DNA of 62,715 nucleotides, filler included, from Stramenopiles sp. TOSAG23-2 (GCA_900128395.1; 46 parts of 46 records of this genome joined end to end with filler, not necessarily neighbours in it), one strand, 5' to 3'; shown: positions 2,653-61,269, counted from the first letter of the whole stretch. Notes: generated by a model not told the origin, from the letters alone. A program made the numbers and translations.

Positions 2653-3018
2653 NNNNNNNNNNNNNNNNNNNNNNNNNNNNNNNNNNNNNNNNNNNNTTAA
2701 TTAATTAANNNNNNNNNNNNNNNNNNNNNNNNNNNNNNNNNNNNNNNNNNNNTATAGAATTTCAGAACGTTTTAGACTAATAATCTTGAAGTCAATGTTT
2801 CTAAGTACAAACTAAATATTGGATTGTAGCTTGTATTTATATGTTATTTTGTGAATTTAATTAGTATATTAAATTTCATGCCTATTACTTTCTTGAGATA
2901 AAAAATGGTTTCCAAAGTTTTGTTTTGCCAGTGGTGGAGATTTGAAAAATAGGTGTTTTTTCTAACTGATTTTGCGGATTAATGCTATTCCTATATTAAA
3001 TCCCCTGAGCCGATGGAA

Positions 3019-3216
3019 ATTCAAACTTAGTCTATAGATTAATGGTACTTGATTGTGATCCTATATACAAATTCAAACTTAGTCTATAATAATGGTACTT
3101 GATTGTGTTCCTATATATATATTCAAACTTAGTCTATAGTAATCGTACTTGATTGTGTTTGTATATAGAAATTCAAACTTAGTCTATAGTAATGGTACTT
3201 GATTGTGTTCCTATAT
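3019..3216. repeat. Tandem repeat, 4 x ~50 bp
   Basis: ATTCAAACTTAGTCTATA..AAT(G/C)GTACTTGATTGTG units start 3019, 3071, 3121, 3171. Confidence 0.97.
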
Positions 3217-3234
3217 CCGTTTCAGTAAATAGGA

Positions 3235-3424
3235 GGTACATAGGATTACGGACAATTACAGTTATATAGCATTACTGTCAAATACAGGTACATAGCATTA
3301 CTGTCAAATACAGGTACATAGCATTCGTAATGATATTCCCACTTGTATATATATCACAAGGTATATAGCATTACGGGAAATTACAGGTACATAGCATTGG
3401 TAATGGTAGCACCAACATAGCATT
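3235..3424. repeat. Degenerate 26-bp tandem repeat with GGTAYATAGCATT core
   Basis: Cores at 3235, 3261, 3287, 3313, 3360, 3386, plus partial copies to 3424. Confidence 0.9.
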
Positions 3425-3444
3425 GCAATCCCAAAATTCAGAGT

Positions 3445-3869
3445 TGTATTGTAGGGTTTTACGGTTTTTAATTTACCAAACTGACGACTATTTAGAGTGC
3501 GATTGGGATAATAATATCCGATAATAAATAATTAATGGAACTGTCAGTAACAGTAGATACAAGATTATTTTTAGAGGATAAAAATGCCTGTATTGTAGGG
3601 TTTTACGGGTTTTAATTTGCCAAACTGACTATTTAGAGTGCGATTGGGATAATAATATCCGATAATAAATAATTAATGGAACTGTCAGTAACAGTAGATA
3701 CAAGATTATTTTTAGAGGATAAAAATGCCTGTATTGTAGGGTTTTACGGGTTTTAATTTGCCAAACTGACTATTTAGAGTGCGATTGGGATAATAATATC
3801 CGATAATAAATAATTAATGGAACTGTCAGTAACAGTAGATACATGATTATTTTTAGAGGATAAAAATCC
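3445..3869. repeat. Satellite, 3 x 141-144 bp
   Basis: Near-identical units starting TGTATTGTAGGGTTTTACGG at 3445, 3589, 3730. Confidence 0.98.
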
Positions 3870-4346
3870 TTGATCGCTTTTATTTTTAGCTTTTTTTAAC
3901 CAAAAATCATCATCATTTTATTGACAGTTAAAAAATATATATTTTTTTATAAAACACGAATATACCACCATCCCGATATAATTTTTACTGTGCCGGCCAG
4001 TCGTAAATTTTCGGTACAAATTGTTCNNNNNNNNNNNNNNNNNNNNNNNNNNNNNNNNNNNNNNNNNNNNTTAATTAATTAANNNNNNNNNNNNNNNNNN
4101 NNNNNNNNNNNNNNNNNNNNNNNNNNGCTATCTCTTCCGTGCAATATAAGTACGGTTCAATATCCAGTAGCTGTATTGGGTGAAAGACATTTGGATTATT
4201 TGTTGTTCCTGCATGCTTCCCTCCTTTGATATTGAATACCATATCCAGGGCATTTACAATCACAAAAATATTGCATAAAATTTCATACCGCTCCTTTGTT
4301 CGAGGTGGGATACACAATGATGAATGGTGAACAATCAAGGAAGACA

Positions 4347-5258
4347 ATGCTGCCACTTGTCGCTTTATTACTTTTGGTATCGACAACAATAGCGACAACA
4401 CCAACTATAACATTAAATAATGGCGTTTTGTTACCTGCAATTGCAGCTGGAACATGGCAATACAAACCTGAAATTGCGGAACAAAGTGTAAACGATGCGT
4501 TTGAAGCAGGGTTTACACACATCGATACAGCACACGATTATGATAATCAAGAAGGTGTAGGTAAGGCATTACAAGGAAGAAAACGAGATTCATTTTTTTT
4601 AACAACAAAGGTTCCAGGTTGTGGTTTACAAGGTATTTCAAAAGCTAATTGTGCTCAAGATAGTTCCGCTGCAATTGATGCCAACTTGAAACAATTAGGC
4701 CTGGACTATGTTGATTTATTATTGATTCATTTTCCACCATTACTTGGTTGTAAAGTAGAATCCAATTGTAAAGCTATACAAAGTCAATATGCTGCACTTG
4801 AAGCTGCATTGACAGCGAAGAAAACAAGAGCTATTGGCGTATCCAACTTTTGCATTAGTTGTTTTGAATGTTTAAATAAAACAATGAAAGTTACTCCTGC
4901 AATTAATCAAGTTAAGTATCACGTAGGAATGGGTTCAGATCCTGGTGGATTAAAATCATATTGCTCAGAACAAGGTATACATATGCAAGCATATTCACCT
5001 TTAGGTGATAATGCATCTGCATTAATTGAAGGACCATTGTTGGAAAAAATTGGTACTGCACACAATAAGAGTTCTGTACAAGTAGCACTTTCATGGATAT
5101 GGCAAAATGCAGTTCCTGTTGTCACAAAAAGTACAAAATTACCCCATTTAAGAGATGATATCGATATTTTTGATTTCAAATTTAGTGCAGATGAATTAAA
5201 CGAATTAAATTCACAAACGCAACCATCTGGATCACCTAGTTTTATGTGTAAAAGTTAA
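4347..5258 (+). CDS. Aldo-keto reductase with N-terminal signal peptide
   Basis: ITLNNG, GTW, HIDTAHDY, FLTTK, LKQLGLDYVDLLLIHFP, RAIGVSNF, AYSPLG, VTKS; D/Y/K/H tetrad present; likely start ATG 4347 (MLPLVALLLLVSTTIA). Confidence 0.95.
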   Translation: MLPLVALLLLVSTTIATTPTITLNNGVLLPAIAAGTWQYKPEIAEQSVNDAFEAGFTHIDTAHDYDNQEGVGKALQGRKRDSFFLTTKVPGCGLQGISKANCAQDSSAAIDANLKQLGLDYVDLLLIHFPPLLGCKVESNCKAIQSQYAALEAALTAKKTRAIGVSNFCISCFECLNKTMKVTPAINQVKYHVGMGSDPGGLKSYCSEQGIHMQAYSPLGDNASALIEGPLLEKIGTAHNKSSVQVALSWIWQNAVPVVTKSTKLPHLRDDIDIFDFKFSADELNELNSQTQPSGSPSFMCKS

Positions 5259-6201
5259 AGAAAATATCAATATATATATCTAGGTACGAACTCAAATTGC
5301 AAGTTTCCCAGGAGTTGTGTTTATATATATATATATTATTAATATTATATACGAGTTCGTATTATAATATATTATGTATTTTTCTGCATGGTGTATTAAN
5401 NNNNNNNNNNNNNNNNNNNNNNNNNNNNNNNNNNNNNNNNNNNTTAATTAATTAANNNNNNNNNNNNNNNNNNNNNNNNNNNNNNNNNNNNNNNNNNNNA
5501 ATATGTATTAGAAGGTTGCAACATCTTGCGAAGACTTATCTTATATTCGTTCTCTTTTGCATTACTCTTTTTCCATTGCATCTCTCTCCTCTCCTTTCCA
5601 TCTATTGTTGCAGTTCGTTATACTTGTTGGTAATAATAATATCTGATGTTAATGGTGTATATAAACACGGTATATTTATATTTTATCAATGGGAGACCGT
5701 GCCCAAAAATTAAAATGAATCTTAATGCTGTGTGGATGCTAGACTACATGTTTTGAGTTGGTTTTTACCACCACACAGCGCAGTAAAAAGGAAAAAGAAA
5801 CTCAACATGCGAAAACACAGTAAGATGCAGTTTCAGTTGCTTTTTACAAGGCTACAACAATATATACGTAAGTACAGCCTTTTCCACTTTTGTTTTTTCA
5901 GTAGTGTACCCTTTTATATTTGCCTGGAATCCAAGCCCCAAGCTATCATACTAAAACACCAAAACGAATCCTATGTAATAACAAAACTACATAGAAATAG
6001 TAGGGAAGAAAGCGTTGAAAAATGCATCGACTAACTTCTTTGTTTTCTTCGAAGAAAAAAAAAATGGGGGGCTAAACTGGTCATATACATTAATATTACT
6101 AAAACTTCATTTATATAGATACACACACACACACACATAAGTTTATACTGGAAAGCCTATCGATATACATATACAAATATAGGAACATATATTGTGTAAA
6201 A

Positions 6202-6772: not shown

Positions 6773-7850
6773 NNNNNNNNNNNNNNNNNNNNNNNNNNNN
6801 NNNNNNNNNNNNNNNNTTAATTAATTAANNNNNNNNNNNNNNNNNNNNNNNNNNNNNNNNNNNNNNNNNNNNCGTTATACCTTTCTAGAAAATCTTCCAC
6901 ACCGTCAACGATACACAACCAGAAGCTACAACCACCAGCCGCACCAGCCGGTACCAACCACACCTGTCAATAAGAGTTGTTACTGTTTCGAACAATCCCC
7001 TGGCCGTGTCTATCTTTCTCTACACGCGCTGGATATGTTTTTACAGGTTTGAGAAAAAGCTATCAACTGGTGCGTATGATCGGAAAAACAGAAAAATACC
7101 CAAACACAATATATAGTTTCCCAACACGGATAAAAATAATCCCACACAGCAGTGATATTTCTAGGCCAGATACGAGATATATACTCGTTCAATGAATGCA
7201 CACGTTGCTAAATGTCTACACGAATAAATATATATTCTACACGTCTTGCCAATACGTCGAAGGGGTGTGTGTTGGTTGTGTATATATGTATTTTTATTTA
7301 AATAAATAATATTTATTCATTCATTTTGGGTGAGGGAGTTTAACTCCTTGATTTAGCATGGTAATAGCATTGAATAGCAGGAAAATAGCAAATGTGTGAG
7401 CTAATGGCAATGATACCGCAACATCTCTAGTACACTTGGCAAAAAAAAAAATTAAAAAAAAAATATCTTTTTTTTATTAATAATAATTTAATTTAAATGA
7501 ATAAAAATATTATTTATACATAAATGAAATAAATGAATCAATAATCGTATCCACCTCATATATACTCTTTTCACACGATTGTATCTATCTATGATTAATC
7601 ATGATAACCAGCATTTAATTCATCCATTCACACCGTATGTTTTATACAGTGTGATGGTTTTATTGTCGGCTTGTGAAGAAATGCATTCATTCCATTTTAT
7701 ATAAAAAAGATACCTTTCAACCACTCATGATGCTATTCCATGCTAACAAGACCCTCCGCGGATGTTTGATAGGCCAAAATCTTCCTTACTTTACGAAACA
7801 TGTACTGGAGAGGGGGATGAACGGGAGCTAATGTGCTCCTTTTCTTAAAG

Positions 7851-8145
7851 CGTCTTGTGATATCACCCTGCTAAAATTTCTAATTTTTATTTAGGATTTC
7901 TAGCAGGCATTTATGATTAGACGAGCAAATACTCTAACACATCCAAAAAAAATGATCATAAATCTTAGACACTTTGCTCGTCTTGTGGTATCACCCTGCT
8001 AACTTTTCTAAAAAATATTTAGGATTTCTAGCAGGCATGTACCATTAGACGAGACACTTTAACAATCTAGATTGTCTTCGACCCTTTGCGCGTCTTGTGG
8101 TATCACCATGCTAAATTTTCTAAAAAATATTTAGGATTTCTAGCA
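7851..8145. repeat. Array of ~80-bp hairpin repeats (2 complete, 1 truncated) with variable spacers
   Basis: CGTCTTGTG(A/G)TATCACC(C/A)TGCTAA...TTTAGGATTTCTAGCA at ~7851, ~7979, ~8091; each unit is self-complementary. Confidence 0.92.
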
Positions 8146-8802
8146 NNNNNNNNNNNNNNNNNNNNNNNNNNNNNNNNNNNNNNNNNNNNTTAATTAATTA
8201 ANNNNNNNNNNNNNNNNNNNNNNNNNNNNNNNNNNNNNNNNNNNNGCACTTTATCATCATATTTTTGTTGTGACATTATTATTATTGTTATCTATATATA
8301 TAAATAAATGGGGTGGCTTATATATATGTGTGTAAATGTATATATACTAAATGAAAAGAGACCGACGCGTGTAAGTATATATGTGTGATACTCTCTGCTT
8401 GTTTTTTTTTTTTCCAGAACGATTAAATGTATAATGTTTTGTTAATTCTATATTTACACACACTTCTTCCATTTACGTGTTAGTATATAATATATCTATT
8501 AATAAATTAATGATTATTATTTTAATTTCCAGAAGATAATATGATTATATTTACTAGGGGCTAACGCCGCCGGCAAATGTTCGAAATAAGGAAGAAGTAA
8601 TTGCAATCATTTTGGGTGGCCGGCGTCGTACATTAATTTTATGTTGTTATTCATATAAATACTTGTTCTAATTTCTTTCAGCTGTGTTTCTAAATCGTCT
8701 GGTATCCTTAAATATTAAAAATACACTATTCACTATTAAATTATTGTTACTTTATTTACAAAATCCACGGTTTCTTGTAATTTTTTGCCAATTGTTATGG
8801 TT

Positions 8803-9391
8803 ATTTCAATATCTTGGTATTTTTTCTAATTTCTATCCACTTTCTTCTACAATTTCTTGTATTTCCTTAACACAAAACCAATCTACTACTGACATTTAGC
8901 TAAAGATAATTCCATTTTCGGTACAAAAAATGTCTACAATATGTCTTAACACTATTAACAAAGAAAAAATATGTTAATTTTAGACGATTTAAGTATATAA
9001 AACACATTTTCTCTATCATCCCGATTTACAAAAAAATGCTATTTTGGTGGAAAAATTTCTTCATTCACCACATAACTGTGGGACATGCACTTTCTTGCGG
9101 TAATTTCAATATATTGGTATTTTTTCTAATTTCTATCCACTTTTTTCTACCTTTTCTTATGTCTCCTTAATTAAAAAATAACACCATTTATAATTAACAT
9201 TTTGTTACGTTTACTACCAAATCCTCGGCAAAAATATAAACAACTTTTTTTAACACTAATAACAATGCAAAAATATATTAATTTTCTCTGATTTAAGTAT
9301 GTAAAACACATTTTCTCTACCATCCCGATTTACAAAAAAACGCTATTTTGGTGGAAAAAGTTCTTCATTCACCACATAACTGTGGGACATG
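8803..9391. repeat. Diverged tandem duplication, 2 x ~300 bp
   Basis: ATTTCAATAT.TTGGTATTTTTTCTAATTTCTATCCACTTT ... CATCCCGATTTACAAAAAAA ... CACCACATAACTGTGGGACATG at ~8803-9087 and ~9103-9391. Confidence 0.93.
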
Positions 9392-19205: not shown

Positions 19206-19257
19206 TTCAAAAGAATACAATAACTGAAATAATCTATCTCACACTAGTGTGTTGATA
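19206..19257. repeat. Dispersed repeat family copy (also ~32575-32691, ~33189-33344, ~61270-61358)
   Basis: 31-bp exact match 19206-19236 = 61316-61346; blocks TCAAAAGAATACA, AATAATCTA, CTATCTCAC shared with other contigs. Confidence 0.8.
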
Positions 19258-19381
19258 TTCTCATAATCGAGAATACCAATGAATATATAAATTTAAAGAT
19301 TTTATATAAAAAATTCTCTTATTTATTAATTTAAAGATTTTATTTACTCATATATGTCATACGAACGTATATTTTAAATTT

Positions 19382-20023
19382 TTACAACTTAAAATATTCT
19401 ATGACAAAAGGTGTCTCTGGTTTTACTAAAAATGATGAATCTTTTATATTCTGTAATTTTCTTGCTTCGTCATCTACTCTTCGTAGCAAATCAGTTTTTG
19501 AATTATTAGATTCAAATGATCCGGTTAACAGCAATGATGGTAAACGAACATTATTATGCCTTTCTTTTCTTGACATTTTTCTACCAGCACGAGCAGAGTA
19601 ATATCGACGCCAGCAAGATAAATTTTTCTGTTGGTATGAGTCTTTATCATTATTATTATTAGACCATCGAGTTTGATTATTTATTATGGCATTATTGTTC
19701 ATCATCTCACCGTCATTATCGTTATATTGTTGAATTAATTGTGCTATGACTTCATATTCTCCAACACTTTCATATAGTAATGCAGTACGAATTGGTGCAT
19801 TAATAAGTCTATTTCGTTTTATTATAGTACCTCGTATTGAAATGTTTCCACCAATAACAAGGTAAACGGTGGTGGCTTTATCCCCTTTCTTAAATACCAC
19901 TTGCCTTTTTTTAAATTGCTTCATTGAACAATCTTTAATAACATCTTTCACATCATCATATTTTAAACCAGCAAAGCAAAATGTTTTCATCGCTATTAAC
20001 AGACGGAAACAAGGGACACACAA
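19382..20023 (-). CDS. cNMP-binding domain protein (fragment)
   Basis: FKKRQVVFKKGDKATTVYLVIGGNISI, ESVGE, RRYYSARA. Confidence 0.75.
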   Translation of the reverse strand: MCVPCFRLLIAMKTFCFAGLKYDDVKDVIKDCSMKQFKKRQVVFKKGDKATTVYLVIGGNISIRGTIIKRNRLINAPIRTALLYESVGEYEVIAQLIQQYNDNDGEMMNNNAIINNQTRWSNNNNDKDSYQQKNLSCWRRYYSARAGRKMSRKERHNNVRLPSLLLTGSFESNNSKTDLLRRVDDEARKLQNIKDSSFLVKPETPFVIEYFKL

Positions 20024-20573: not shown

Positions 20574-21841
20574 TGGAATACGCCCCAGCAAATTACCCTC
20601 AGTGCTAGCGGCGACGATATAGACAACGATGTGGATGAAGAAATGTTTGAAGTGCTGTACTATGCATCTACAGCAGACTCGATATTTCAATCGAAAGCAA
20701 CCAACAACACAGTCATTACGCGTATTGCGGACGATGATACTGCTGGTATCATAATCGAAAGTGACAACATTATTGCATTGACCGAAGGTAGCGGGAATAA
20801 GACGCTCAATATAAAACAATTAGCATCTGAACCGTTGCATGATGTCACCATTTCCATAACGTCATCCTCCGCACTCATCGAAGCAACGCCAACAAGTATG
20901 ACAGTACTAAAGTCGAATTGGAATACAATGAATCAAGAAATTACTGTAAAAGCCATAGATGGTGATTACAGTGGTGGTACAACGTTTACAGTAAAATTAT
21001 CGTGTACTAGTGTGGATCCAAAGTACAATAGTGCATCAACAGATGTAAATCAAGCTGTAACAGTAGCAACCGTTGGTCCAACAAAAGGTGAAATAGTTAT
21101 TCCACAAACAGGTCAATCCAGTGAAGGAAGCGCATACACATACTCTGTAAGACTGTCGATGGCGCCAGCAGATGTATCAAAGAGCGTCACCGTAGGCATT
21201 ACGTCATCGGATAACACAAAATGTACACTGTCTGCATCATCCGTTGAGTTGAAAAATAGTAATTACGAAAACGGTATAACCGTAGCTGTTACTTTGCTGG
21301 ATAATGTTGTGGATGAAGGAACCGACCAAACTTCGTTTACATGTACATTAACGCATACCGTTACACAAACGACAGATTCTTACTACACAAATATCGGCAC
21401 GAAAACGTTGATATTAAACAGTGTCAACAACGACAACGCGGATGCCAAATTGCAATTGGTAGCAGCAGGTGGTGGGTTTGAGTATAAATTAAAAGTGGTT
21501 GGTCCATTGGCAATTACCGAGGGGACCGATACCTCATATGGTTTGGTATTGGACACCGAGCCAACACAAAATGTGATGGTATACCCAGCCATCACATCAC
21601 CACGAAGCAATACACCGTTGAGTGTGACATTGTCGCCATCTAAAGTTGCATTTACACCTTCCAACTGGAATACGCCCCAGCAAATTACCCTCAGTGCTAG
21701 CGGCGACGATATAGACAACGATGTGGATGAAGAAATGTTTGAAGTGCTGTACTATGCATCTACAGCAGACTCGATATTTCAATCGAAAGCAACCAACAAC
21801 ACAGTCATTACGCGTATTGCGGACGATGATACTGCTGGTAT
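20574..21841 (+). CDS. Internal fragment of a large repetitive Ig-like/Calx-beta-associated surface protein
   Basis: Open across whole contig; Thr/Val/Ser-rich beta modules with FTPSNWNTPQ, KSNWNTMNQ, NSNYENG; 364-aa super-repeat. Confidence 0.85.
21666..21841. repeat. 176-bp direct repeat of contig start (20574-20749), period 1092 bp
   Basis: TGGAATACGCCCCAGCAAATT...GATACTGCTGGTAT at both ends, same frame. Confidence 0.97.
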
Positions 21842-22182: not shown

Positions 22183-22824
22183 ATGGCTGAATCTACTACT
22201 TGGGCATTCAATTTCTTAACGTTTTTAAATCATGGTGTTTTCGCTGCCTTGTTTTTATGGCGATTGGCAATATCACCAGATGGATTAACCCCAGACCCTA
22301 CTAGAGCGTTAAAAGTGGAGAGCGAAACTGTGTGTTCGATGATTGGCTGTGACCCGGTTGACGTAAACAAACGCTCTGTAGCAATCATAAAACCTTTTTT
22401 TGAAAGTAGTGGTCTAGGTGATGGTGCATTTTTTATGTTTTGGTATATGGCATTAGAAGGATGTTTGCATTTAGGAATCTGCTATGGGAGTTTTTTATTA
22501 TTATTTATAGAAAGAACACGTTATGCTGAAAAAGTTTATCATTGGGCATTGCTAGGAGAAATTATATTGATGGATATTGCATATACTGCTGGCTTCAATG
22601 GTGTAATGTATTATTGTGGATTTAATTCTGAGCAATGTGTGCCACCTAACGTATCTAGTGATGGTACTTTTATTGATGGTGCATTGTATGCATATTTCAT
22701 TTTAACAGTAACATGGTTACAAAATATCAGTGTGATTATGGATTTAGTTACATACCCAGTGGAACTAGAATGTGCTGGTAGGGCTTTACAAATGGATGCT
22801 GCTACTGAGAAAAAGGTTAATTAA
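22183..22824 (+). CDS. Multi-pass membrane protein, unknown family
   Basis: Complete 213-aa ORF with about four hydrophobic segments. Confidence 0.85.
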   Translation: MAESTTWAFNFLTFLNHGVFAALFLWRLAISPDGLTPDPTRALKVESETVCSMIGCDPVDVNKRSVAIIKPFFESSGLGDGAFFMFWYMALEGCLHLGICYGSFLLLFIERTRYAEKVYHWALLGEIILMDIAYTAGFNGVMYYCGFNSEQCVPPNVSSDGTFIDGALYAYFILTVTWLQNISVIMDLVTYPVELECAGRALQMDAATEKKVN

Positions 22825-23310
22825 ATTATATATATATATATATATATATTTAAAAAAAAAATAAAATATATACGAACTTCGTATAATACGCGTTTTCGTA
22901 ATATATTTTATTTTACCCTTCATAGATCGTATCATACGCGCATGTATTTTTCTTTTACTACGCTGACCATTATTTTTAATATATATGCTTTCCCTTCTTT
23001 TATTTTACCTGACCACATTTCTTTCAATTGTTTTTCTCGTTTTTTATTATTAATAATTACGTCTCTCAGCACAACAAGAATGCAAAGCATGTTTAGCTAA
23101 GGAACCTACAATAATATATTAGGACAAGCATCATTTTTTATACAAAAGCCAAGAAGTACGATTGGCCAAAATTACACCAATATTATAAGAGAAAATATCC
23201 TTAATTAATNNNNNNNNNNNNNNNNNNNNNNNNNNNNNNNNNNNNNNNNNNNNTTAATTAATTAANNNNNNNNNNNNNNNNNNNNNNNNNNNNNNNNNNN
23301 NNNNNNNNNA

Positions 23311-28677: not shown

Positions 28678-29128
28678 NNNNNNNNNNNNNNNNNNNNNNN
28701 NNNNNNNNNNNNNNNNNNNNNTTAATTAATTAANNNNNNNNNNNNNNNNNNNNNNNNNNNNNNNNNNNNNNNNNNNNGGAATGAATAAAAAATTAAAATA
28801 CGCGTACATTTATATTATATATTACGGAAGAGTATAAAATATACGACGCGTATATATATAATACGAACTCGTATATATAAAAAAGAGAGAGAAATATTTT
28901 ATTTTTTGCTTGAATTTGAATAAAATTTACGAGTATGTATTATATTAATATTAATAGAGTATAAAAATGAACTGATGTTTAAAAAAATCTAGTAAAGTTT
29001 AAATAAAAAGTAAGTACGAATTCGTATAATAATAATTTTACATCCCCATGGCCTCTAAATACACATTATATCCACATTATATAAATAAATTAATAAAAAA
29101 TAAATAGTACGGTCGCTCCCCAACAAAA

Positions 29129-29525
29129 CTACCCTGACGATAACATTTGCTTCTCCTGTTCGGACATATGTTGACCTGGATGTTGCAATGCATTTTTTGC
29201 TTGTTCTACAGGATGCCCTGGTTTGTTTCTATTATCTATACATTGTTGATATGGATCACCAGCTTTTTCCATTTCCGGTGTAACATTTGGCAATTGGCAT
29301 TCTTGCGGTTTGTATTCACATGTACTCGATAGCTTCAACCAATCTTTCTCTGTATATGGGCAACTACACATGCAACGACATTGATCAGTTGCAGATGCAC
29401 CAGTTGGATTTGTTTTTAATGATTCTTCCGATGGAGATACTGGTTCAGAGCATTGTACCATTGCTTGTGCAAATTTTGAATTTGCAAAACGATACCATGC
29501 TTGTAAACATTTCGATCTCGTTAAT
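29129..29525 (-). CDS. C-terminal part of Cys-rich hypothetical protein
   Basis: KCLQAWY...QCRCMCSCPY...CEYKPQEC...QQC; 5' end unresolved. Confidence 0.6.
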
Positions 29526-29591
29526 ATTATAATATACTGTATTTGATATGTAAAACAATACGTTACTGATAATGAAATGCTTGTAAACAAG

Positions 29592-29841
29592 TCAATCTCG
29601 TAATAAAACCCTCGTCATAAAGATTAAGAAGTGGTTTCCTGACATTGATAAGATAGACTCGTTGACGATTGACCTGATACAAAAATTCTAACGATTTTTA
29701 TGTAAGTTGGAGGCGGTGTGTACTCTTCGATTTCGTTACGAAATACTGTAAATACTGATCAATCTCGTAACAAAACCCTCGTCATTGATGAATAGGTGGT
29801 TTCCTTTCGGTGATAAGATGCAGACTCATTGAAGATTGACC
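29592..29841. repeat. Diverged direct repeat, 2 x ~83 bp (period ~167)
   Basis: TCAATCTCGTAA.AAAACCCTCGTCAT...GTGGTTTCCT...TGATAAGAT...AGACTC.TTGA.GATTGACC at 29592 and 29759. Confidence 0.9.
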
Positions 29842-32403: not shown

Positions 32404-32574
32404 TATTTTCTATTTAAATATACAAACAAACACACACATATATATATATATATATATTACTCTTCGTNNNNNNNNNNNNNNNNNNNNNNNNNNNNNNNNN
32501 NNNNNNNNNNNNNNNNNNNNNNNNNNNNNNNNNNNNNNNNNNNNNNNNNNNNNNNNNNTACATATAATATATGT

Positions 32575-32691
32575 AAATGTACGCGTATTTTAATTTTTTA
32601 TTTCTACGTCGTGATAATCCCTACTATCCAAAGAGTAATTTATCCAAGAAGCCAATATTAATAATATCTATCTCACTGAAATGTGTCAATA
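32575..32691. repeat. Dispersed repeat family copy
   Basis: AAATGTACGCGTATTTTAATTTTT ... CTATCTCAC..AAATGTGTCAATA shared with 33189-33344. Confidence 0.8.
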
Positions 32692-33188
32692 TATATACAT
32701 ACATAAATAATTTCAAACTAATACTTATACATACATGCATATACACACACATGCATGCATATAATAATAAATAATANNNNNNNNNNNNNNNNNNNNNNNN
32801 NNNNNNNNNNNNNNNNNNNNTTAATTAATTAANNNNNNNNNNNNNNNNNNNNNNNNNNNNNNNNNNNNNNNNNNNNATTATCATATTTTTTGCATGATGA
32901 TTTTGGAGTTATCAAATAGCTGGATAGGATATAGCACCTGCTGATGTGTGTACGTTCTATATAAAGAAGTTGTGACATTTGACGTTGTACCAAACATGCT
33001 CTTAATAGGCTTAAAGAAAGCATCTGCACAGTCCACCATTATTTAATATTTCATGTGTAGGATAATTATAAATATGCAAGATATTAGATTTTGTACATGT
33101 ACACCCAGTTATTTTTAAATCTGGTTAAAAAATCTAAAGTTAATAAATAATTTTTTACTTCTCGTGGTAAAGTTATTTTTATATTTTT

Positions 33189-33344
33189 AAATGTACGCGT
33201 ATTTTAATTTTTAATTCTCTCTATATATTCCTATATACCCATGACAATTCCTATTCTCAAAAGAATACAGTGACTTAGCCAAATATTAAAAATAATCTAT
33301 TTTAACCATCGATTAAATAAGCTATCTCACAAAATGTGTCAATA
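33189..33344. repeat. Dispersed repeat family copy
   Basis: Has ATGTACGCGTATTTTAATTTTT, CATGACAATTCCTA, TCAAAAGAATACA, AATAATCTA, CTATCTCACAAAATGTGTCAATA blocks. Confidence 0.8.
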
Positions 33345-33530
33345 ATTCCTGTGGTAATCTTTTTTTGTTGTCCATTGGTGACTGTTGTGTCTACGTGATA
33401 ATGTACTTCGCCAGGTGTTTCTGCGGTTAGTTATTTATAGTAATCACTTGCAGTACAATCAATAGTCACTGAAGCANNNNNNNNNNNNNNNNNNNNNNNN
33501 NNNNNNNNNNNNNNNNNNNNNNNNNNNNNN

Positions 33531-34903: not shown

Positions 34904-34948
34904 AAACAAAATCCAGATGTATGTTGGCAATATCAATGTTATTGACCC

Positions 34949-35200
34949 CAGGGAGTCTAGGGAGTCTTCAGGGACTTTTAGAAACTTTGAATAGCATTGG
35001 AATACGCTTTGTTTAGGGAGTCTAGGGAGTCTAGGGAGTGTCTAAAAAAGAAATAATCGAATACAAAAAAAAGTTAAAAAAATCTTTTCTTCTTTTTTAT
35101 TTTAACACACTCCCTGGAGTCCCTGGACTCCCTATACGCCTACTGTGCGCATGCTAATCAAACTCGCTGAAAGTCCCTGACGACTCCCTGGACTCCCTAG
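34949..35200. repeat. Mirror-symmetric iteron element (6 + 6 copies of YAGGGA[G/C]TC around AT-rich core)
   Basis: Triplets at 34949-34977 and 35014-35040; reverse-complement triplets at 35108-35134 and 35171-35200; core 35041-35107. Confidence 0.95.
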
Positions 35201-35705
35201 GCCATCCTGTATACCTGCTATTCAAATTCCCTAAACTCATAAACAATAAAGAAACATCCGTTCGAGATGAAATAAAATTATCGTTATAATTTTCTGATAT
35301 AAAAGAATCCAAAAATCTATCCACAATTCGTGATGTGCTGTTTGTAGATTAACCTCTGTCAATATATTTTGGTACATTGGAAACGAAATGTATTGGTCAT
35401 TTATCATATGAATAAGGTTAAACATGTGTTGGTACGTGTTGTACACATGTTGCAAGATATTAATACCCTCATGCAAGGGTTGTTCGGGCTAGATTGAGCA
35501 GAAAGTNNNNNNNNNNNNNNNNNNNNNNNNNNNNNNNNNNNNNNNNNNNNTTAATTAATTAANNNNNNNNNNNNNNNNNNNNNNNNNNNNNNNNNNNNNN
35601 NNNNNNTATACATATACGTGTACATGACACACATAAAACATTCTAAATACCTTTTCATTCTATATAAGCATATATATATACAAAAAAGAAGAAGAAAACT
35701 GTTAA

Positions 35706-36338
<633 letters not shown>

Positions 36339-36971
36339 ATATTAATAATGTGTACATAAAATTACGTACGTCGTGTGTTGTACATATTATCCAGTAGGCC
36401 ATACAAATTATGTATGTGTATGTGTGTGTATGTGTGTGTGTGAAACAGAAGATAAGTGTTTATAAAAAATGAGAGAGCAGATATATTAAATATGTATCAT
36501 TATGATATTATGATATTAATAATATATATATGATATGATATCATACGATTCGTATTTTAAAAAAATATATGAAATTATGAGATGTGCAGATATATTAGTT
36601 TTATCGTCAAAAAAAATAAAAATATACACAAACACCACCACCACGAATATTCGTATATTTTAAAAATATATTTAAATATACTGACACGTACCACGCGCGG
36701 AAGGGCAAAAACTCTCTCTCTCTCTCTATCATTTTTTTTTCTTCTTCACACACACTTGTTTTATTTTTTCCTTTGACCTTTCTTTTGTTTTTATATTTTA
36801 AAAGTATTATTTTTTGTGTGTTTTTTTACAAAACTTTTTTCAATCCATCATATAAACCAGCTGGTTGTGTANNNNNNNNNNNNNNNNNNNNNNNNNNNNN
36901 NNNNNNNNNNNNNNNTTAATTAATTAANNNNNNNNNNNNNNNNNNNNNNNNNNNNNNNNNNNNNNNNNNNN

Positions 36972-38383: not shown

Positions 38384-39118
38384 ATGGCGACGAAAGCGGC
38401 ATCAGTACCATGGATGGTATCATTGGCATTGTATATGCAAAGAAAAAAATTACATGCTAGTAAAGAAAGTCCAATAAAGAAAGCGACGAAACATATTGCA
38501 AGAAACGTTGTAAATGCAGTGACGGAGCAAGTTGCAAAAGTACCAGTTGAATCGTATTTTCAATGGTATCAAAGAGGTCTCCTTGAAAACCCATACATGT
38601 TTAAAGGTTTGACTTCAACAACGTTGAAAATGTTATCAGATATGACGGGACAACTCATTTCTGAAGGTAAAGTTGTCAGCTTCCGTACAATGGTATCGTT
38701 TGGAATGTTTGGTTTCTTTATTGATTCACCGTTATGCCATAATTGGTATGCGTTTGTAAATCGCGTTACACCACAATATACCGGTGGCTCGTTGTTCCTA
38801 ACAACAGCTATTAATTGTGCACTGGATCAATTCCTTTTCAATCCATTTTATTATGTGGTTTGGATGATATCCTTTGGTTACATGGCTGGTTCATTTGAAA
38901 GTTGGGAAGAAGCAACTGATAAAGTGAAACGTGATTTATGGCCAGCAATGTTAGCAGCATGGCGTGTATGGCCATTTTATACATTTATTAGTATGTATTT
39001 CTTACCAGAGGAATGGTGGATGCCAGTTGGATATTTCGTAGGATATTGTTTTAATACATATTTGAAATTATTATCTGTATGGAGTGATAAAACAGTTGCT
39101 GATAAAAAAGAAGAATAA
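38384..39118 (+). CDS. Mpv17/PMP22 family membrane protein
   Basis: WYQRGLLENPYMFKGLTS...SDMTGQ, SPLCHNWY, LDQFLFNP, AAWRVWP; complete ORF. Confidence 0.94.
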   Translation: MATKAASVPWMVSLALYMQRKKLHASKESPIKKATKHIARNVVNAVTEQVAKVPVESYFQWYQRGLLENPYMFKGLTSTTLKMLSDMTGQLISEGKVVSFRTMVSFGMFGFFIDSPLCHNWYAFVNRVTPQYTGGSLFLTTAINCALDQFLFNPFYYVVWMISFGYMAGSFESWEEATDKVKRDLWPAMLAAWRVWPFYTFISMYFLPEEWWMPVGYFVGYCFNTYLKLLSVWSDKTVADKKEE

Positions 39119-39232
39119 ATGAAAATGTGGAAAGGACTATTACGTGTGTATATTATCTGTATGGAGTGATAAAACAGTTGCTGATAAAAAAGAAGAATAA
39201 ATGAAAATGTGGAAAGGACTATTACGTGTGTA
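39069..39232. repeat. Exact tandem duplication, 2 x 82 bp, spanning the Mpv17 stop codon
   Basis: 39069-39150 = 39151-39232. Confidence 0.97.
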
Positions 39233-39478
39233 AATTAGTTATCATATATAGACTACGGTGTGTGTCGTTTTTTTGTAATATGATAATATATATATGATGG
39301 TGCTTGAGTGTGGTGCAGCAAAACATTTTAAAATAACACAAAATATTTTTTACTACACACACTGTAAAATTTTTTCATAAAAAGTATTTCATAATATATA
39401 TATAATATATTTTTACACATTTTTAATATACGACGAAGTAAAATACATTAAAATATACATGAGATTAACACATATAAC

Positions 39479-46512: not shown

Positions 46513-47028
46513 TGTCCATCACTTCCGCAGAAATCATATCAAGATTATGGCCTTTCTGGTCCAAGTGACCCGGCCTATCCAAAACAGCTATGTAGTGATA
46601 AATCAGATTTTTTTGTTCGGAATTTCGTTGGTGAACATCCAGTTGTTTGTGGATTAGAACAAGAACTTGGTTTTAGCAGCAGTAAAAGTAAAAACAACGG
46701 TGTTGAAAATGGTGATGGTACAACAAGTAGTGATATGCCATGGCATCAAAATGTTCATATAGTTGGAATATTAGCATTGATTGTAGGTTTTATTTTAGGT
46801 GCGGTTGTCATTAAATTTATTGTTGTAAATATTGTTCAAAAACATAATAAACATCATAATATTAGGAATACAAATAATCCAATGATGAATAATGATGATG
46901 GGACTACTAATATTCCAGCAACAGGTTTAAAAGTTGAAATGCAAAGTGGGAAAACAATTGGTGTAAAAGATGATGATATTCATACAAGGAAGAAAAGTAG
47001 AAATACATGGGCGGAAAATGCAATTTAA
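46513..47028 (+). CDS. C-terminus of single-pass membrane protein
   Basis: Frame open from contig start; TM IVGILALIVGFILGAVVI. Confidence 0.75.
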   Translation, partial: CPSLPQKSYQDYGLSGPSDPAYPKQLCSDKSDFFVRNFVGEHPVVCGLEQELGFSSSKSKNNGVENGDGTTSSDMPWHQNVHIVGILALIVGFILGAVVIKFIVVNIVQKHNKHHNIRNTNNPMMNNDDGTTNIPATGLKVEMQSGKTIGVKDDDIHTRKKSRNTWAENAI

Positions 47029-47870
47029 AAAGGATAAAATTGTAAAAAGGGAAGAGGCGAGGATCTAGACGACTATATATTAGTTCTTTGCAACAGTGTT
47101 TTTGTTTTTTATTTTTAAAAGTTTTACCTCTATTAGGTATAATGAATATAAATATTTTTAGGAATTTTTAATAGCACTTTTTCTCACACTCTCTGTTAAC
47201 ATCACATGCTCTTTTCCTCCCTGCTATCCAGGCTATACTATTTTAATTTTAGTCCTGATGTCTCCATGCTAAATTCCCGACACCTAAACCGTTGGAAAAA
47301 AAAATACAAATTGTAAAATCTGTACGTTGATTTATTAAGTAATTTAATGGGAAATTATAATTTAGATGAAGAAGATTTAACTGGTATTCCAAAAGCGTAC
47401 AAATATAATGTGATTGAGGAAAGGAGTATTGGGTTGTGATAATACGTAACATATATATGTTGTGGGGAAAAGAGAGTGTGATTTTTAGTATATTTTTATA
47501 AATATTATCACGAACTCGTTTGTATATATAACTAAAAATTTCTATAAAATATCAATATGCATCATCTTACGTGCATTTTAAATATTTGTACACATATTGG
47601 AATATCATTTTCGAATTGGTATTTCCCTATCAAAACTATAGATATTAGTATAGTTATAATGTACCTGGAAATGTAGCATATACATATATAATAATTTCAA
47701 TAATGTTGCTATAAAATAATAATTATAAAAAACAAAATAAAAAATGAAAGAAAGCAAAACAACGTAAAAGNNNNNNNNNNNNNNNNNNNNNNNNNNNNNN
47801 NNNNNNNNNNNNNNTTAATTAATTAANNNNNNNNNNNNNNNNNNNNNNNNNNNNNNNNNNNNNNNNNNNN

Positions 47871-49129
47871 TCTACATTTTTACTATTTGATGGTGGAGGT
47901 GGTGGCGGTGGCCTGCCACTTCTACCACCACCCCCACGAAAACTGCTAGGAGGACTTCTTCTACCACCCCCTCCACGAAAACTATTCAGAGGATTCGGGC
48001 AATTTTTACTAATATGACCCCTTCCTCCACATTTAAAACATTCTGCCTCTGGGCATTGACTAGCTCTATGCCCAACTTTTCCACAACAATGGCATACCAT
48101 ATTATTATTTGAATTATCAGAAGCTCCTTTCTTTGGACAATCTTTTGATATATGTCCAAATTCCTTGCAGATGTAACACTGCACTCTATCTAAATTTGGA
48201 CAATCGCGAGACATATGTCCCTTTTCTTTACATTTAAAACATACCCTATCTTCCATATTAACAAAATTACTATTACCGGCTTGTTCGTTATTCCCGGGTG
48301 CTTGGGTCAAGCTTCCTGTCCCACCAACGACAACGCATGCATTTGGCATTGGTGGATTCAAGAGTGCTTCCTCCTCTCTTTTCTTCCTCTTTTCATCTTC
48401 CTCCTTTTTGAATTTTAGAAAATCTTTGTACAAAAGATCGCGCCTTACGCGATCTTGTTCTTTGGCATATTTAATCCACCCCTCTTCATCATTACCATAA
48501 TTAAAAAAATCACTTACATCTGCACCTTCGGCTCTCCACGGCTTTTCCTCCAAGGCATTTATATCTATATCAAATGCAGTTTTCAAACGCCATGGTTCCA
48601 CTGCAAATAATGGATCATATTCCACACCATCATCATTCTCCAAAATTTTTCCACCGACGTTGTTTCCAGCACTAAATGCACTTTTACGCCTTCCTTTGTT
48701 GTCTTCTGCTTGGTTTAACTCGTCACCTGTAATATCAGTAGTAGCAGCGCCGTCATCCACAGGTGCGGTTCCTTCCGATATATTATTATTAGTATCTTTA
48801 GTTGTATCGCTATTTACAATATGATCTGATCTTTTCCAGCTGTTCCTTGCACCGCTAACACGACTGCCAAAACTAGATCTACGATGAAGCTTCCTACTCG
48901 ATGCAGCGGTTGTATCTCCAATTATAATTTCGACATCTTCATCATCGTCAGAATCGCTATCCGAGGACTTATCGCCTTCATCATCATCGCCATCCTCAAC
49001 GCCACTAACAATATTTTTTTCTCCTACATTCTTCTTATCGTTCACATTTACATTTGCTGTTATCGACGACGATTCATTAGCATTTCCCTCTGCAGGTGAA
49101 ACCATCATCATCGTGCTACTAGTATCATT
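47871..49129 (-). CDS. FIP1: Pre-mRNA 3'-end processing factor FIP1 with four CCHC zinc knuckles (truncated)
   Basis: Acidic SDSDDDEDVEIII; Fip1 motif FDIDINALEEKPWRAEGADVSDFFNYG.DEE.W..Y...Q; 4 x CX2CX4HX4C; RGG/Pro-rich tail. Confidence 0.92.
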
Positions 49130-57284: not shown

Positions 57285-57552
57285 NNNNNNNNNNNNNNNN
57301 NNNNNNNNNNNNNNNNNNNNNNNNNNNNTTAATTAATTAANNNNNNNNNNNNNNNNNNNNNNNNNNNNNNNNNNNNNNNNNNNNATATGGTTTTTGTCCA
57401 TTTAGGGCCAGAAAAGTCCTCTCTCAGATAAACCGGGTCTTATATATATATAAAATATCATTACGATGTTCGTATGATATGATTTTTTAATTTTAAAAAA
57501 CACTTTTATTTTTTACGCGCGTACTCTCCTTGCATTTATTTAATACAGTGAT

Positions 57553-58218: not shown

Positions 58219-58790
58219 ATTGGACTTGTTTAAGATGTTTTAAAAAAATATTATAGTTGTAAAGGGTTAAATAGATGTTGAATTTATGAAAGAAGCAATT
58301 GTGTTTATATATACAATATATATTCTTACAGTTGCTTATGGATATATATTTTTGTATATACAATGGTATTGACGTGCTATTTATTTTTATTAAAATGCAT
58401 TTTGTTGTTGTTTGATGAAACAGTTTGAAGGTTGAAGGAATATATAGATATTGTGATGGGAAATGGAGGGTGTGTGACCAAAATATATTTATATAATTTC
58501 GATATATATTTTGATATAAGTAGTGTGGATATAAAACCATTTTATTTGTCGTTGCGGATTTGATTAGATTTAGTTCTGGAATAGATTTATTATATATATT
58601 TTTTTTTGTAACATTTTTTATATTATATTATTTAGTGTAATTANNNNNNNNNNNNNNNNNNNNNNNNNNNNNNNNNNNNNNNNNNNNTTAATTAATTAAN
58701 NNNNNNNNNNNNNNNNNNNNNNNNNNNNNNNNNNNNNNNNNNNCGTAAATATATTTTATAAATACACACACAACACCCTTTGTTTTCTTT

Positions 58791-60897: not shown

Positions 60898-61269
60898 GAA
60901 GTAAAAAGTTTTGTATAAAAATTTTTACACTCTTTCGTATCATATATATACGTAAATGTTCTCTTACACTCACATATATATATATATATATATATATATC
61001 GTATGCATATATAAAAAAATTCTCCTTATGCTTATATTTACGAGTCGTATAATTTAAAGATTTTTTATTTTACTCATAATGTTATATATTATATATTCAC
61101 TATATATGTGTAGTTACCAGAAATAATTAATACTATTACCTAACCAGAATTGCATACAATAAAAGAGAGTGGAAGAATTATTTATATTAATATTGTTTAG
61201 GTCCCGGGGAATCAAGAGGTTGCTTGTGTTTCTTTTTGGCTGGTCGTCGTAACCCTTTATATATATATA

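What the first reader, a model, noticed from the sequence alone, without database searches (positions are those of the whole stretch)
5350..5361. Palindromic TACGA-N1-4-TCGTA element downstream of stop codons of many unrelated genes
Seen: TACGAGTTCGTA 5350-5361 (~90 bp after AKR stop); TACGAACTTCGTA 22871-22883; TACGAACTCGTA 28862-28873 and TACGAATTCGTA 29015-29026 (after minus-strand gene ending 29129); TACGATTCGTA 36544-36554 and CACGAATATTCGTA 36642-36655 (after E2 gene); TACGATGTTCGTA 57462-57474; TACGAGTCGTA 61039-61049. Variants: TACGAACGTA 19360-19369, ACGAACTCGT 47510-47519. Arms are constant, the loop varies, stems are sometimes extended by AT pairs (5342-5370, 57455-57480), and ACGCGT often lies nearby. 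A CG-containing palindrome in very AT-rich 3' flanks stands out and I did not notice it in coding DNA. Established: hairpin-directed 3'-end formation is known in Mimivirus but is not the standard nuclear signal. Inference: a lineage-specific, orientation-independent termination/polyadenylation or gene-boundary signal.
Basis: partly seen in the sequence, partly recalled or inferred. Interest (0 to 1): 0.8.

Follow-up and report, generated by a model that had tools for sequence, protein, structure and literature searches.

The report
Short palindrome behind gene ends
A short CG-containing palindrome recurs just downstream of genes in this AT-rich marine protist DNA far more often than chance allows; it probably marks gene ends, but how it works is untested.

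Summary
TACGA-N(1-3)-TCGTA occurs 7 times in 58.6 kb of non-N sequence, against 0.17 expected. All 7 copies lie 46-255 nt downstream of the stop codon of a long ORF. They occupy 6 of 20 visible 3' flanks and 0 of 20 5' flanks. Single half-sites (TACGA/TCGTA) are also about 3-fold enriched, in 3' flanks only.

The window is 46 short contigs (about 1.27 kb each) joined by artificial linkers. They come from a 30% GC marine eukaryote whose proteins resemble those of MAST-4-type stramenopiles.

The Mimivirus-like hairpin reading is poorly supported:
- The arms are constant in sequence.
- The stems are 4-5 bp, and the folds are mostly no better than shuffles.
- Only about a third of 3' flanks carry the motif.
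- One copy is missing at the same site in a 99%-identical strain.
- Isolated half-sites occur in both orientations.

My best reading (about 0.35) is a lineage-specific double-stranded DNA site for a dimeric protein that marks or insulates gene 3' ends. Rivals are an RNA element of polyadenylation, transposon excision footprints, and an element serving a neighbouring gene or a replication origin. No transcript-end evidence could be obtained. I found no report of the motif in print.

The parts
5350..5361 (.). Exact copy TACGA-GT-TCGTA, 91 nt after the stop of the aldo/keto reductase gene (4317-5258, +).
   Evidence: It is absent at the orthologous place in L001.
22871..22883 (.). Exact copy TACGA-ACT-TCGTA, 46 nt after the stop of an orphan ORF (22183-22824, +).
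22887..22900 (.). Degenerate second copy TACGCG-TTT-TCGTA, 3 nt after the exact copy.
28862..28873 (.). Exact copy TACGA-AC-TCGTA, 255 nt downstream of the stop of the minus-strand ORF 29129-29614.
28842..28852 (.). One-mismatch variant TACGA-C-GCGTA, next to the exact copy at 28862.
29015..29026 (.). Exact copy and perfect 12-nt palindrome TACGAATTCGTA, 102 nt downstream of the stop of the minus-strand ORF 29129-29614.
36544..36554 (.). Exact copy TACGA-T-TCGTA, 205 nt after the stop of the E2 ubiquitin-conjugating enzyme gene (35718-36338, +).
   Evidence: It is unchanged in a DNA contig of run X1 that has indels on both sides of it.
36642..36655 (.). Variant cACGA-ATAT-TCGTA, about 305 nt after the E2 stop.
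57462..57474 (.). Exact copy TACGA-TGT-TCGTA, 78 nt downstream of the stop of the minus-strand ORF 57553-58239.
57514..57523 (.). Related palindrome TACGC-GCGTA, 29 nt downstream of the same stop.
61039..61049 (.). Exact copy TACGA-G-TCGTA, 141 nt after the stop of ORF 60103-60897 (+).
19360..19369 (.). Truncated variant TACGAACGTA, 12 nt downstream of the stop of the minus-strand ORF 19382-19990.
47510..47519 (.). Weak variant ACGA-AC-TCGT that lacks the outer T/A, about 480 nt after the stop of ORF 46513-47028 (+).

Best explanation
TACGA-N(1-3)-TCGTA is best written as the 12-nt palindrome TACGAA|TTCGTA with a loose centre and a length tolerance of plus or minus 1 nt. I read it as a lineage-specific cis-element of gene 3' flanks in a compact, AT-rich genome of a MAST-4-like marine stramenopile.

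Most likely it is read as double-stranded DNA. A sequence-specific protein would bind each TACGA half-site and bind palindromic pairs as a dimer. Its role would be to mark the downstream boundary of a transcription unit. It could stop or roadblock RNA polymerase II that has passed the poly(A) site, hold a nucleosome-free boundary, or both. Either way, closely packed neighbouring genes would not interfere with each other.

Shown: the enrichment, the restriction to 3' flanks, the strand symmetry, the clustering with half-sites, the weak folding, and the incomplete and polymorphic occurrence. Inferred: protein binding, recognition at the DNA level, and any role in termination or insulation.
For: 1. 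Enrichment. There are 7 copies against 0.17 in shuffles. Within 3' flanks there are 7 against 0.013 in 300 first-order Markov simulations.

2. Place. All 7 of 7 copies lie in 6,483 nt of 3' flank. None lies in 8,787 nt of 5' flank, 10,166 nt of ORF-less contigs or 32,615 nt of ORF. The motif is in 6 of 20 3' flanks and 0 of 20 5' flanks (Fisher p = 0.02), although (TA)5+ runs are equally common in both, at 9 of 20 each. In contigs 17 and 45 no coding frame appears for more than 300 nt beyond the motif, so it sits closer to the upstream stop.

3. The half-site is the unit. TACGA/TCGTA is the most enriched 5-mer in 3' flanks that is not made of A/T only, with 34 against 26 in the other non-coding DNA (3.8-fold, p = 3e-7). 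The 34 compare with 12.4 +/- 3.4 simulated. The 5' flanks, ORF-less contigs and ORFs sit at expectation. Half-sites cluster in the flanks that carry the palindrome.

4. Independent locus. L001 has 3 half-sites in the first 220 nt after the stop of its upstream ORF, against about 0.4 expected.

5. Strand symmetry. Isolated half-sites on the sense strand number 8 TACGA and 12 TCGTA.

6. Sequence is kept, structure is not. The 10 outer positions are identical in all 7 copies, while the folds are weak.

7. Lineage specificity. There are 0 copies in 433,269 nt of 28 giant-virus loci with 20-35% GC.

8. Retention. The E2 copy is kept unchanged in a DNA contig of run X1 that has three indels within 65 nt of it.

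9. Machinery. A Fip1 homologue lies in the window (47871-49111), so the ordinary cleavage/polyadenylation machinery is present and a separate DNA-level boundary signal is not redundant with it.
Against: - No protein, no binding data and no transcript-end data exist for this motif.
- Only 6 of 20 3' flanks carry it, so it cannot be a general requirement.
- The AKR copy is replaced by unrelated TA-rich sequence in L001, whose coding sequence differs at 9 of 942 nt. The motif is therefore dispensable at that locus.
- One-mismatch copies are barely enriched, with 8 observed against about 4 expected, and 6 of the 8 lie in ORFs. That all-or-none pattern is unusual for transcription-factor sites and fits recent insertion of a fixed sequence.
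- A spacing that varies by 2 bp is awkward for a rigid dimer.
- The sample is small: 58.6 kb, with 6 independent loci.
Confidence: 0.35

Rival explanations
1. RNA hairpin that directs mRNA 3'-end cleavage and polyadenylation, as in the Mimivirus hairpin rule.
For: The motif is palindromic and lies 46-255 nt after stop codons. The centre varies while the arms pair. Two copies have AT extensions (5342-5370, 57455-57480). The variant TACGC/GCGTA at 57514 keeps pairing through a change on both sides.
Against: The z-scores of the 7 exact copies are -0.68, -1.73, -3.62, +0.85, -0.17, -1.69 and +0.06. In the copies at 29015 and 61039 the minimum-energy fold does not pair the arms. Loops of 1-2 nt force the inner pair open, which leaves 4 bp. 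The arms are constant in sequence, whereas the Mimivirus signal is described as not conserved at the nucleotide level (PMC4402537, passages read). Only 6 of 20 flanks carry the motif. One copy is absent in a near-identical strain. Isolated half-sites, which cannot fold, are enriched as well.
Confidence: 0.08
2. Linear RNA element such as UUCGUA, acting as an auxiliary signal of the ordinary cleavage/polyadenylation machinery. It would be comparable to UGUA or to the UA-rich efficiency elements of yeast. The palindrome would supply the same word to transcripts coming from either side.
For: The motif is restricted to 3' flanks. It co-occurs with (TA)5+ runs, in 5 of 6 motif flanks against 4 of 14 others (p = 0.05). 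Canonical machinery is present, as shown by Fip1. An RNA contig of run X17 carries a 5-nt insertion, TTCGT, that creates a half-site 17 nt after the E2 stop, so such words can lie inside transcripts.
Against: Isolated half-sites show no strand preference, at 8 against 12. Only a minority of flanks carry the motif. The distance from the stop varies between 46 and 255 nt. No poly(A) site has been mapped.
Confidence: 0.15
3. Excision footprints, or minimal remnants, of a DNA transposon that inserts at TA. The structure would be TA + CGA.. + ..TCG + TA, with the centre varied by end-joining. The copies would have no function of their own.
For: The constant outer TA-CGA/TCG-TA with a variable centre of 1-3 nt is the shape expected of such footprints (my recollection of Tc1/mariner biology, not a call). 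All copies sit in TA-rich DNA. There is presence/absence polymorphism between strains, and a 5-nt indel makes a half-site. Exact copies far outnumber one-mismatch copies relative to chance. Truncated forms exist, such as 19360.
Against: No TACGA...TCGTA pair at 7-1200 nt has extended inverted repeats; the best is 8 of 15 matching positions among the 41 pairs examined. No dispersed repeat other than (TA)n joins the copies. Half-sites are not in excess near contig ends, by my count from the listing. There are 0 copies in 5' flanks although (TA)5+ runs are equally frequent there, and 0 copies in 10 kb of ORF-less contigs. The L001 allele is not a clean single-TA empty site.
Confidence: 0.17
4. 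Element that serves a neighbouring function and merely happens to lie behind genes. Candidates are a distal promoter or enhancer site of the next gene downstream, or a replication-origin or nucleosome-positioning site in intergenic spacers.
For: ACGCG-containing palindromes that look like promoter elements lie 3-300 nt away in 4-5 of 6 motif-bearing flanks. In L001 the AKR gene is followed by a same-strand ATG about 390 nt after its stop.
Against: No copy lies in 8.7 kb of the 20 visible 5' flanks, 12 of which are longer than 350 nt. The motif lies nearer the upstream stop than any downstream frame. A density of one per 8 kb is high for origins.
Confidence: 0.1
5. Chance or a composition effect of AT-rich DNA.
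For: None beyond the small sample.
Against: None of the 100 shuffles reached 7 copies. Simulation within 3' flanks gave a mean of 0.013. AT-rich control DNA of 433 kb holds 0 copies.
Confidence: 0.01

Closest known systems
Mimiviridae 'hairpin rule' polyadenylation signal (PMC4402537, passages read; Byrne et al. 2009 recalled, not held)
   Same: Both are palindromes in AT-rich DNA just behind genes, and both are usable from either strand.
   Different: The viral signal is defined by structure and is not conserved in sequence. It is near-universal among the virus's genes and is cut by a viral RNase III-like enzyme. Here the sequence is constant, the stem is 4-5 bp with no folding advantage, and only 6 of 20 flanks carry it. 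The genes look cellular: EMC1, Fip1, and an E2 that is 80% identical to a labyrinthulomycete protein.
Roadblock termination and boundary formation by general regulatory factors (Reb1, Rap1, Abf1) in budding yeast (PMC5052057, search listing and start of abstract only; the rest recalled)
   Same: Both would be short, sequence-specific double-stranded DNA sites in the intergenic spacers of a compact genome that stop polymerases and bound transcription units. They work in either orientation and are present at a subset of genes.
   Different: The motif sequence is unrelated to those sites (recalled). No binding protein is known here. Those yeast sites lie mostly in promoters, whereas this motif is 3'-specific.
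Auxiliary polyadenylation elements: UGUA bound by CFIm, and the UA-rich efficiency element of yeast (recalled; PMC11368178 seen in a search listing only)
   Same: Both are short words in 3' flanks that are often repeated, and here they are associated with UA-rich runs.
   Different: Those are strand-specific RNA words at set distances from the cleavage site. This motif is strand-symmetric and its distance from the stop varies.
Excision footprints of TA-targeting Tc1/mariner transposons (recalled)
   Same: Both have a TA at each side, a few fixed bases from each element end, a variable centre, and polymorphism between strains.
   Different: No matching element was found. There is a strong 3' bias. 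Single half-sites are enriched as well.
ACGCGT (MluI-box-like) promoter elements (recalled)
   Same: TACGCGTA and TACGCGCGTA share the outer TACG/CGTA and lie beside the motif.
   Different: TACGCGTA occurs in 5' flanks as well as 3' flanks, and twice in an ORF repeat. In three contigs it is the core of a longer conserved element of about 31 nt. It is probably a separate signal.

Membership tests
Mimivirus-type hairpin-rule polyadenylation signal | A palindrome able to form a hairpin lies at the 3' end of the transcription unit. | tested here: inconclusive
   The palindrome lies 46-255 nt after stops. The transcript ends could not be mapped (one search gives contigs only).
Mimivirus-type hairpin-rule polyadenylation signal | The signal is defined by structure and is not conserved at the nucleotide level (PMC4402537). 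| tested here: not met
   All 7 copies share the same 10 outer bases, so there is no covariation to count.
Mimivirus-type hairpin-rule polyadenylation signal | The hairpin is stable compared with background sequence. | tested here: not met
   The z-scores are -0.68, -1.73, -3.62, +0.85, -0.17, -1.69 and +0.06. The arms are unpaired in the minimum-energy fold of 2 of the 7 copies.
Mimivirus-type hairpin-rule polyadenylation signal | The signal is present behind nearly all genes (recalled from Byrne et al. 2009). | tested here: not met
   Only 6 of 20 3' flanks of at least 100 nt carry it.
Mimivirus-type hairpin-rule polyadenylation signal | A dedicated RNase III-like nuclease and a viral poly(A) polymerase are present. 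| not testable with these tools
   No genome is held for this window. The window itself encodes a canonical Fip1 homologue.
Roadblock / boundary sites of sequence-specific DNA-binding factors | A short, sequence-specific motif that is independent of orientation. | tested here: met
   The arms are constant. Isolated half-sites occur 8 against 12 on the two strands.
Roadblock / boundary sites of sequence-specific DNA-binding factors | The motif is bound by a protein, and polymerase or transcripts stop just upstream of it. | not testable with these tools
   Only assembled contigs of RNA runs could be laid on the sequence, and these cannot show transcript ends.
TA-targeting transposon excision footprint | A TA on both sides with fixed element-end bases and a variable centre. 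| tested here: met
   All 7 copies read TA-CGA-N(1-3)-TCG-TA.
TA-targeting transposon excision footprint | Source elements with the same termini exist in the genome. | tested here: not met
   None was found in 58.6 kb; the best inner inverted repeat is 8 of 15 among the 41 pairs examined. There is no dispersed repeat. The whole genome is not available, so this is a weak negative.
TA-targeting transposon excision footprint | The allele without the footprint shows a single TA. | tested here: not met
   L001 has 5 unrelated bases in place of the 12-nt motif. This is one locus only, in fast-changing TA-rich DNA.

The most novel reading that the evidence does not exclude
MAST-4-type marine stramenopiles use a sequence-defined, bidirectional gene-end element, the 12-nt palindrome TACGAA|TTCGTA with a length tolerance of plus or minus 1 nt. 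A dedicated DNA-binding factor reads it and terminates or roadblocks RNA polymerase II behind a subset of genes. This would be a nuclear, protein-read counterpart of a terminator in a compact eukaryotic genome. The element would be gained and lost quickly between strains.
Probability: 0.25. Interest if true: 0.7.

Novelty: new variant of a known kind. Interest (0 to 1): 0.5.

Why it matters
MAST-4 flagellates are abundant bacterivores in the ocean. They have never been cultured, and nothing is known about how their genes are delimited or regulated.

A short exact motif that marks gene 3' flanks would help in three ways:
- It would be a practical aid to annotating such genomes and metagenome bins.
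- It would be a handle for finding the factor that reads it.
- It would be a test case for how compact eukaryotic genomes keep neighbouring transcription units apart.

If the copies turn out to be transposon footprints, they would instead record massive past mobility in a lineage for which no mobile elements have been described.

Tried and rejected
- **Whole genome.**
  - All four runs are assembled contigs.
  - RNA contigs of X15 and X17 cover the gene to 36404, and the records run 32-36 letters further.
  - No RNA contig covers 36424-36595, which holds the motif. RNA cover resumes near 36720.
  - The DNA run covers the motif.
  - The breaks coincide with TG, TA and CT repeats, where the DNA contigs break too.
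  - A back-joint (36632 to 35682, X15) looks like low-complexity mis-laying, and I ignored it.
- **More DNA of the organism.**
  - The prokaryote-genome scan with E2 gave one unrelated 59% hit.
  - Viral-contig scans with E2, AKR and GH28 gave only giant-virus E2 genes at 51-65% identity, nothing, and one spurious hit.
- **Motif scan of viral contigs** (ATATACGA-N1-3-TCGTAT). Of these, 116 hold one copy and 1 holds two. Mean GC is 40%. These are scattered single matches with no family.
- **Transposon test.** No extended inverted repeats were found, and no dispersed repeat beyond (TA)n.
- **A viral origin for the motif-bearing contigs.** Their GC3 is 0.250, against 0.251 for the other contigs. 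The E2 is closer to a labyrinthulomycete protein (80%) than to giant-virus copies (65% or less). Rejected, though four of the six genes are orphans.
- **Known RNAs.** There are no Rfam families at gathering score and no tRNAs in the window.
- **A/T skew around the motif.** The downstream side is T-rich in 6 of 7 copies and the upstream side is inconsistent. The sample is too small to use.
- **Earlier notes of this scan.** Four look-ups were answered and returned nothing.
- **Literature.** Searches found no report of this motif or of a stramenopile 3' palindrome. One search found the exact 12-mer in two unrelated papers only.

Full report
**What the window is.** The 62,715 bases are not one piece of chromosome. 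They are 46 contigs of 1,257-1,276 nt, sorted by length and joined by a 100-nt spacer, N44-TTAATTAATTAA-N44. Neighbouring contigs are therefore not neighbours in the genome, and ORFs that cross a spacer are artefacts.

The DNA is 30% G+C with CpG near expectation. It is dense in long intron-poor ORFs for ordinary eukaryotic proteins. These include EMC1, Fip1 with zinc knuckles, an E2 ubiquitin-conjugating enzyme, JmjC/cupin, PH-domain proteins, GH28, Mpv17/PMP22 and an aldo/keto reductase (AKR).

The AKR has 98%-identical relatives in marine metagenome proteins. At 68% identity it matches a cluster with a member named as a MAST-4 stramenopile protein. The best named relative of the E2 is a labyrinthulomycete protein at 80%. 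Parts of a 9.5-kb stretch of the window are held by 20 marine sequencing runs of 14 studies. A published description of MAST-4A fits this picture: 33.9% GC and compact genomes with few introns (PMC5269757, passages read). I conclude that the DNA comes from a MAST-4-like marine stramenopile. I did not try to trace it further.

**The observation.** One hundred dinucleotide-preserving shuffles gave a mean of 0.17 and never more than 1. Among all 5-nt arms with loops of 0-6 nt, this is the top palindrome that is not pure A/T. The listed variants are present, and there are more of them. As a natural control I took 433 kb of giant-virus contigs with 20-35% GC, fetched for another purpose. They hold no copy.

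**Where the copies lie.** I annotated ORFs of at least 100 codons on each contig and classed every base.
- All 7 copies, on 6 contigs, fall in the 6,483 nt that lie downstream of a stop codon. None falls in 8,787 nt upstream of start codons, in 10,166 nt of contigs without a long ORF, or in 32,615 nt of ORF.
- The distance from stop to motif is 46-255 nt.
- Counted by flanks of at least 100 nt, 6 of 20 3' flanks carry the motif and 0 of 20 5' flanks do (p = 0.02).
- Runs of (TA)5 or more are equally frequent on both sides, at 9 of 20 each. TA-richness alone therefore does not explain the bias.
- In contigs 17 and 45 no coding frame appears for more than 300 nt beyond the motif. In L001 the next same-strand ATG is about 390 nt after the AKR stop. 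The motif thus sits in the stop-proximal part of the spacer.

**The half-site is enriched by itself.** An unbiased k-mer comparison of 3' flanks with the other non-coding DNA puts TACGA/TCGTA first among words that are not pure A/T. The counts are 34 against 26 (3.8-fold, p = 3e-7), and for ATACGA 21 against 8. First-order Markov simulations expect 12.4 +/- 3.4 half-sites in the 3' flanks, with a maximum of 22 in 300 runs. The 5' flanks (13 against 12.7), ORF-less contigs (13 against 14.5) and ORFs (49 against 47.6) sit at expectation.

Half-sites cluster in the flanks that hold the palindrome, for example six in contig 22 and five each in contigs 17 and 45. They are lacking in 8 of the 20 flanks. 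Isolated half-sites lie in both orientations relative to the gene, 8 against 12. In the one extra locus I could fetch (L001), the spacer behind an upstream 544-codon ORF has three half-sites in its first 220 nt, against about 0.4 expected, and none in the remaining 345 nt.

**Shape of the motif.** Read from the centre, the copies are versions of the perfect 12-mer at 29015 (TACGAA|TTCGTA). They differ from it by a central mismatch or by one base more or fewer, giving lengths of 11, 11, 12, 12, 12, 13 and 13. The ten outer bases never vary.

One-mismatch copies are hardly enriched. Eight were observed against about four expected, and six of the eight lie in ORFs. The pattern is therefore close to all-or-none. 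Beside the exact copies lie related palindromes built on TACG...CGTA, at 22887, 28842 and 57514.

**Folding.** As RNA, the 60-nt contexts of the seven exact copies fold at -2.5 to -11.1 kcal/mol. Their z-scores are -0.68, -1.73, -3.62, +0.85, -0.17, -1.69 and +0.06. In two of them (29015, 61039) the arms are not paired in the minimum-energy structure. With loops of 1-2 nt the inner pair must open, which leaves four pairs.

The Mimivirus signal is described as a hairpin-forming palindrome that is not conserved in sequence and is cut by a viral RNase III-like enzyme (PMC4402537, passages read). The present motif is the reverse case: fixed sequence, negligible structure, and present at a minority of genes. 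No Rfam family and no tRNA match anywhere in the window.

**Variation between strains.** L001 is a 3.5-kb metagenome contig whose AKR coding sequence differs from the window's at 9 of 942 nt. It is colinear with the window's 3' flank on both sides of the motif, but in place of the 12-nt motif it has five unrelated A/T bases. A nearby half-site is also changed from TACGAAC to TACGCAC.

At the E2 locus the picture differs. A DNA contig of run X1 keeps the motif unchanged although it has three indels within 65 nt of it. An RNA contig of run X17 has a 5-nt insertion, TTCGT, that creates a half-site 17 nt after the stop. These words are thus gained and lost quickly in the TA-rich flanks. One copy is dispensable and one is retained.

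**Is it a mobile element?** The TA-CGA...TCG-TA shape with a variable centre recalls the excision footprints of TA-targeting transposons (my recollection, not a call). The polymorphism and the all-or-none pattern fit that idea. Several results speak against it:
- No pair of half-sites 7-1200 nt apart has extended inverted repeats; the best is 8 of 15 among the 41 pairs examined.
- An all-against-all comparison of the contigs links the copies only through (TA)n.
- There is no copy in the 5' flanks or in the ORF-less contigs.
- The L001 allele is not a clean empty site.

Without the genome, the footprint idea cannot be excluded.

**Could the motif-bearing contigs be viral?** Four of the six genes in front of the motif are orphans, and giant viruses encode E2 enzymes, so I checked. 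The third-position GC of these genes is 0.250, against 0.251 for the others. The E2 is closer to a cellular stramenopile protein than to the viral ones. Half-sites also lie behind genes for EF-hand, cyclic-nucleotide-binding and SET-associated proteins. I see no sign of a separate origin.

**Transcript ends.** This was the decisive test, and it could not be done. Only one read-laying run was allowed, only one contig could be laid because of the linkers, and every run was available only as assembled contigs. What those contigs cover is given under Tried and rejected. It says nothing about where transcripts end.

**Conclusion.** The element is specific to 3' flanks, strand-symmetric, sequence-defined, clustered with its own half-sites, present at about a third of gene ends, and labile between strains.

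These properties fit best with a double-stranded DNA site for a protein that binds half-sites and dimerises on the palindrome, marking or insulating gene ends in a compact genome. Yeast offers a working analogy in the roadblock and boundary sites of general regulatory factors (PMC5052057, search listing only). I put this reading at about 0.35. The rivals are:

| Reading | Confidence |
|---|---|
| Transposon excision footprints | 0.17 |
| Linear RNA word that aids ordinary polyadenylation | 0.15 |
| Element of a neighbouring promoter or replication origin | 0.10 |
| Hairpin-directed polyadenylation proper | 0.08 |

Searches of the held literature found no description of the motif.

Noticed in passing
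Whole window; spacers every ~1,370 nt, e.g. 5400-5499: The window is 46 contigs of 1,257-1,276 nt in descending length, joined by N44-TTAATTAATTAA-N44 spacers. Two further N runs, 32468-32558 and 33477-33530, lie inside contigs. Adjacency across spacers is artificial.
   Followed up: yes
28784-28822 (+), 32562-32602 (-), 33181-33220 (-): A conserved element of about 31 nt surrounds the 8-nt palindrome TACGCGTA in three different contigs, at 90-97% identity. In contig 24 it lies upstream of an ORF in the sense direction. In contigs 22 and 25 it lies far downstream of one. It may be a promoter module or a small dispersed repeat. TACGCGTA alone occurs 8 times in the window.
   Followed up: partly
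20574-20749 and 21666-21841: The two ends of contig 16 are 100% identical over 176 nt, inside an ORF that is open from end to end. This is either a long tandem repeat in a coding region (unit of about 1,092 nt) or a circularly assembled repeat.
   Followed up: no
53357-53411 and 54512-54566: There is a perfect 55-nt inverted repeat between one end of contig 40 and a site near its other end. It is probably an assembly or amplification chimera.
   Followed up: no
19206-19236 and 61316-61346: An identical 31-mer is shared by the start of contig 15 and a site near the end of contig 45. The two sequences diverge exactly where contig 45 continues with TACGCGTA. This looks like a branch in the assembly graph, from alleles or a repeat.
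   Followed up: no
47871-49111 (-): This ORF carries a Fip1 motif and three CCHC zinc knuckles, so a core factor of the ordinary cleavage/polyadenylation machinery is encoded in the window.
   Followed up: partly
39069-39237: An 87-nt tandem duplication at 99% identity spans the stop codon of the Mpv17/PMP22-family gene.
   Followed up: no
4127-4310 versus L001 2000-2195: Directly upstream of the AKR start codon, the window's contig and the otherwise 99%-identical contig L001 are unrelated. Either the neighbour differs between strains or one of the two contigs is chimeric.
   Followed up: no
Contigs 3 (3013-3870), 6 (7850-8145), 7 (8799-9391), 26 (34947-35201): ORF-less contigs contain tandem repeats with units of about 145, 130 and 300 nt, and a 250-nt inverted repeat at 73% identity. 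Their nature is unknown.
   Followed up: no
All 3' flanks versus 5' flanks: The CpG observed/expected ratio is 1.25 in 3' flanks, 0.85 in 5' flanks and 0.90 in ORF-less contigs, although the 3' flanks are the most AT-rich at 26% GC.
   Followed up: partly
53073-53098 and 60997-61021: A shared run of about 18 nt that ends in a TACGA half-site next to a (TA)n run occurs in two contigs.
   Followed up: no
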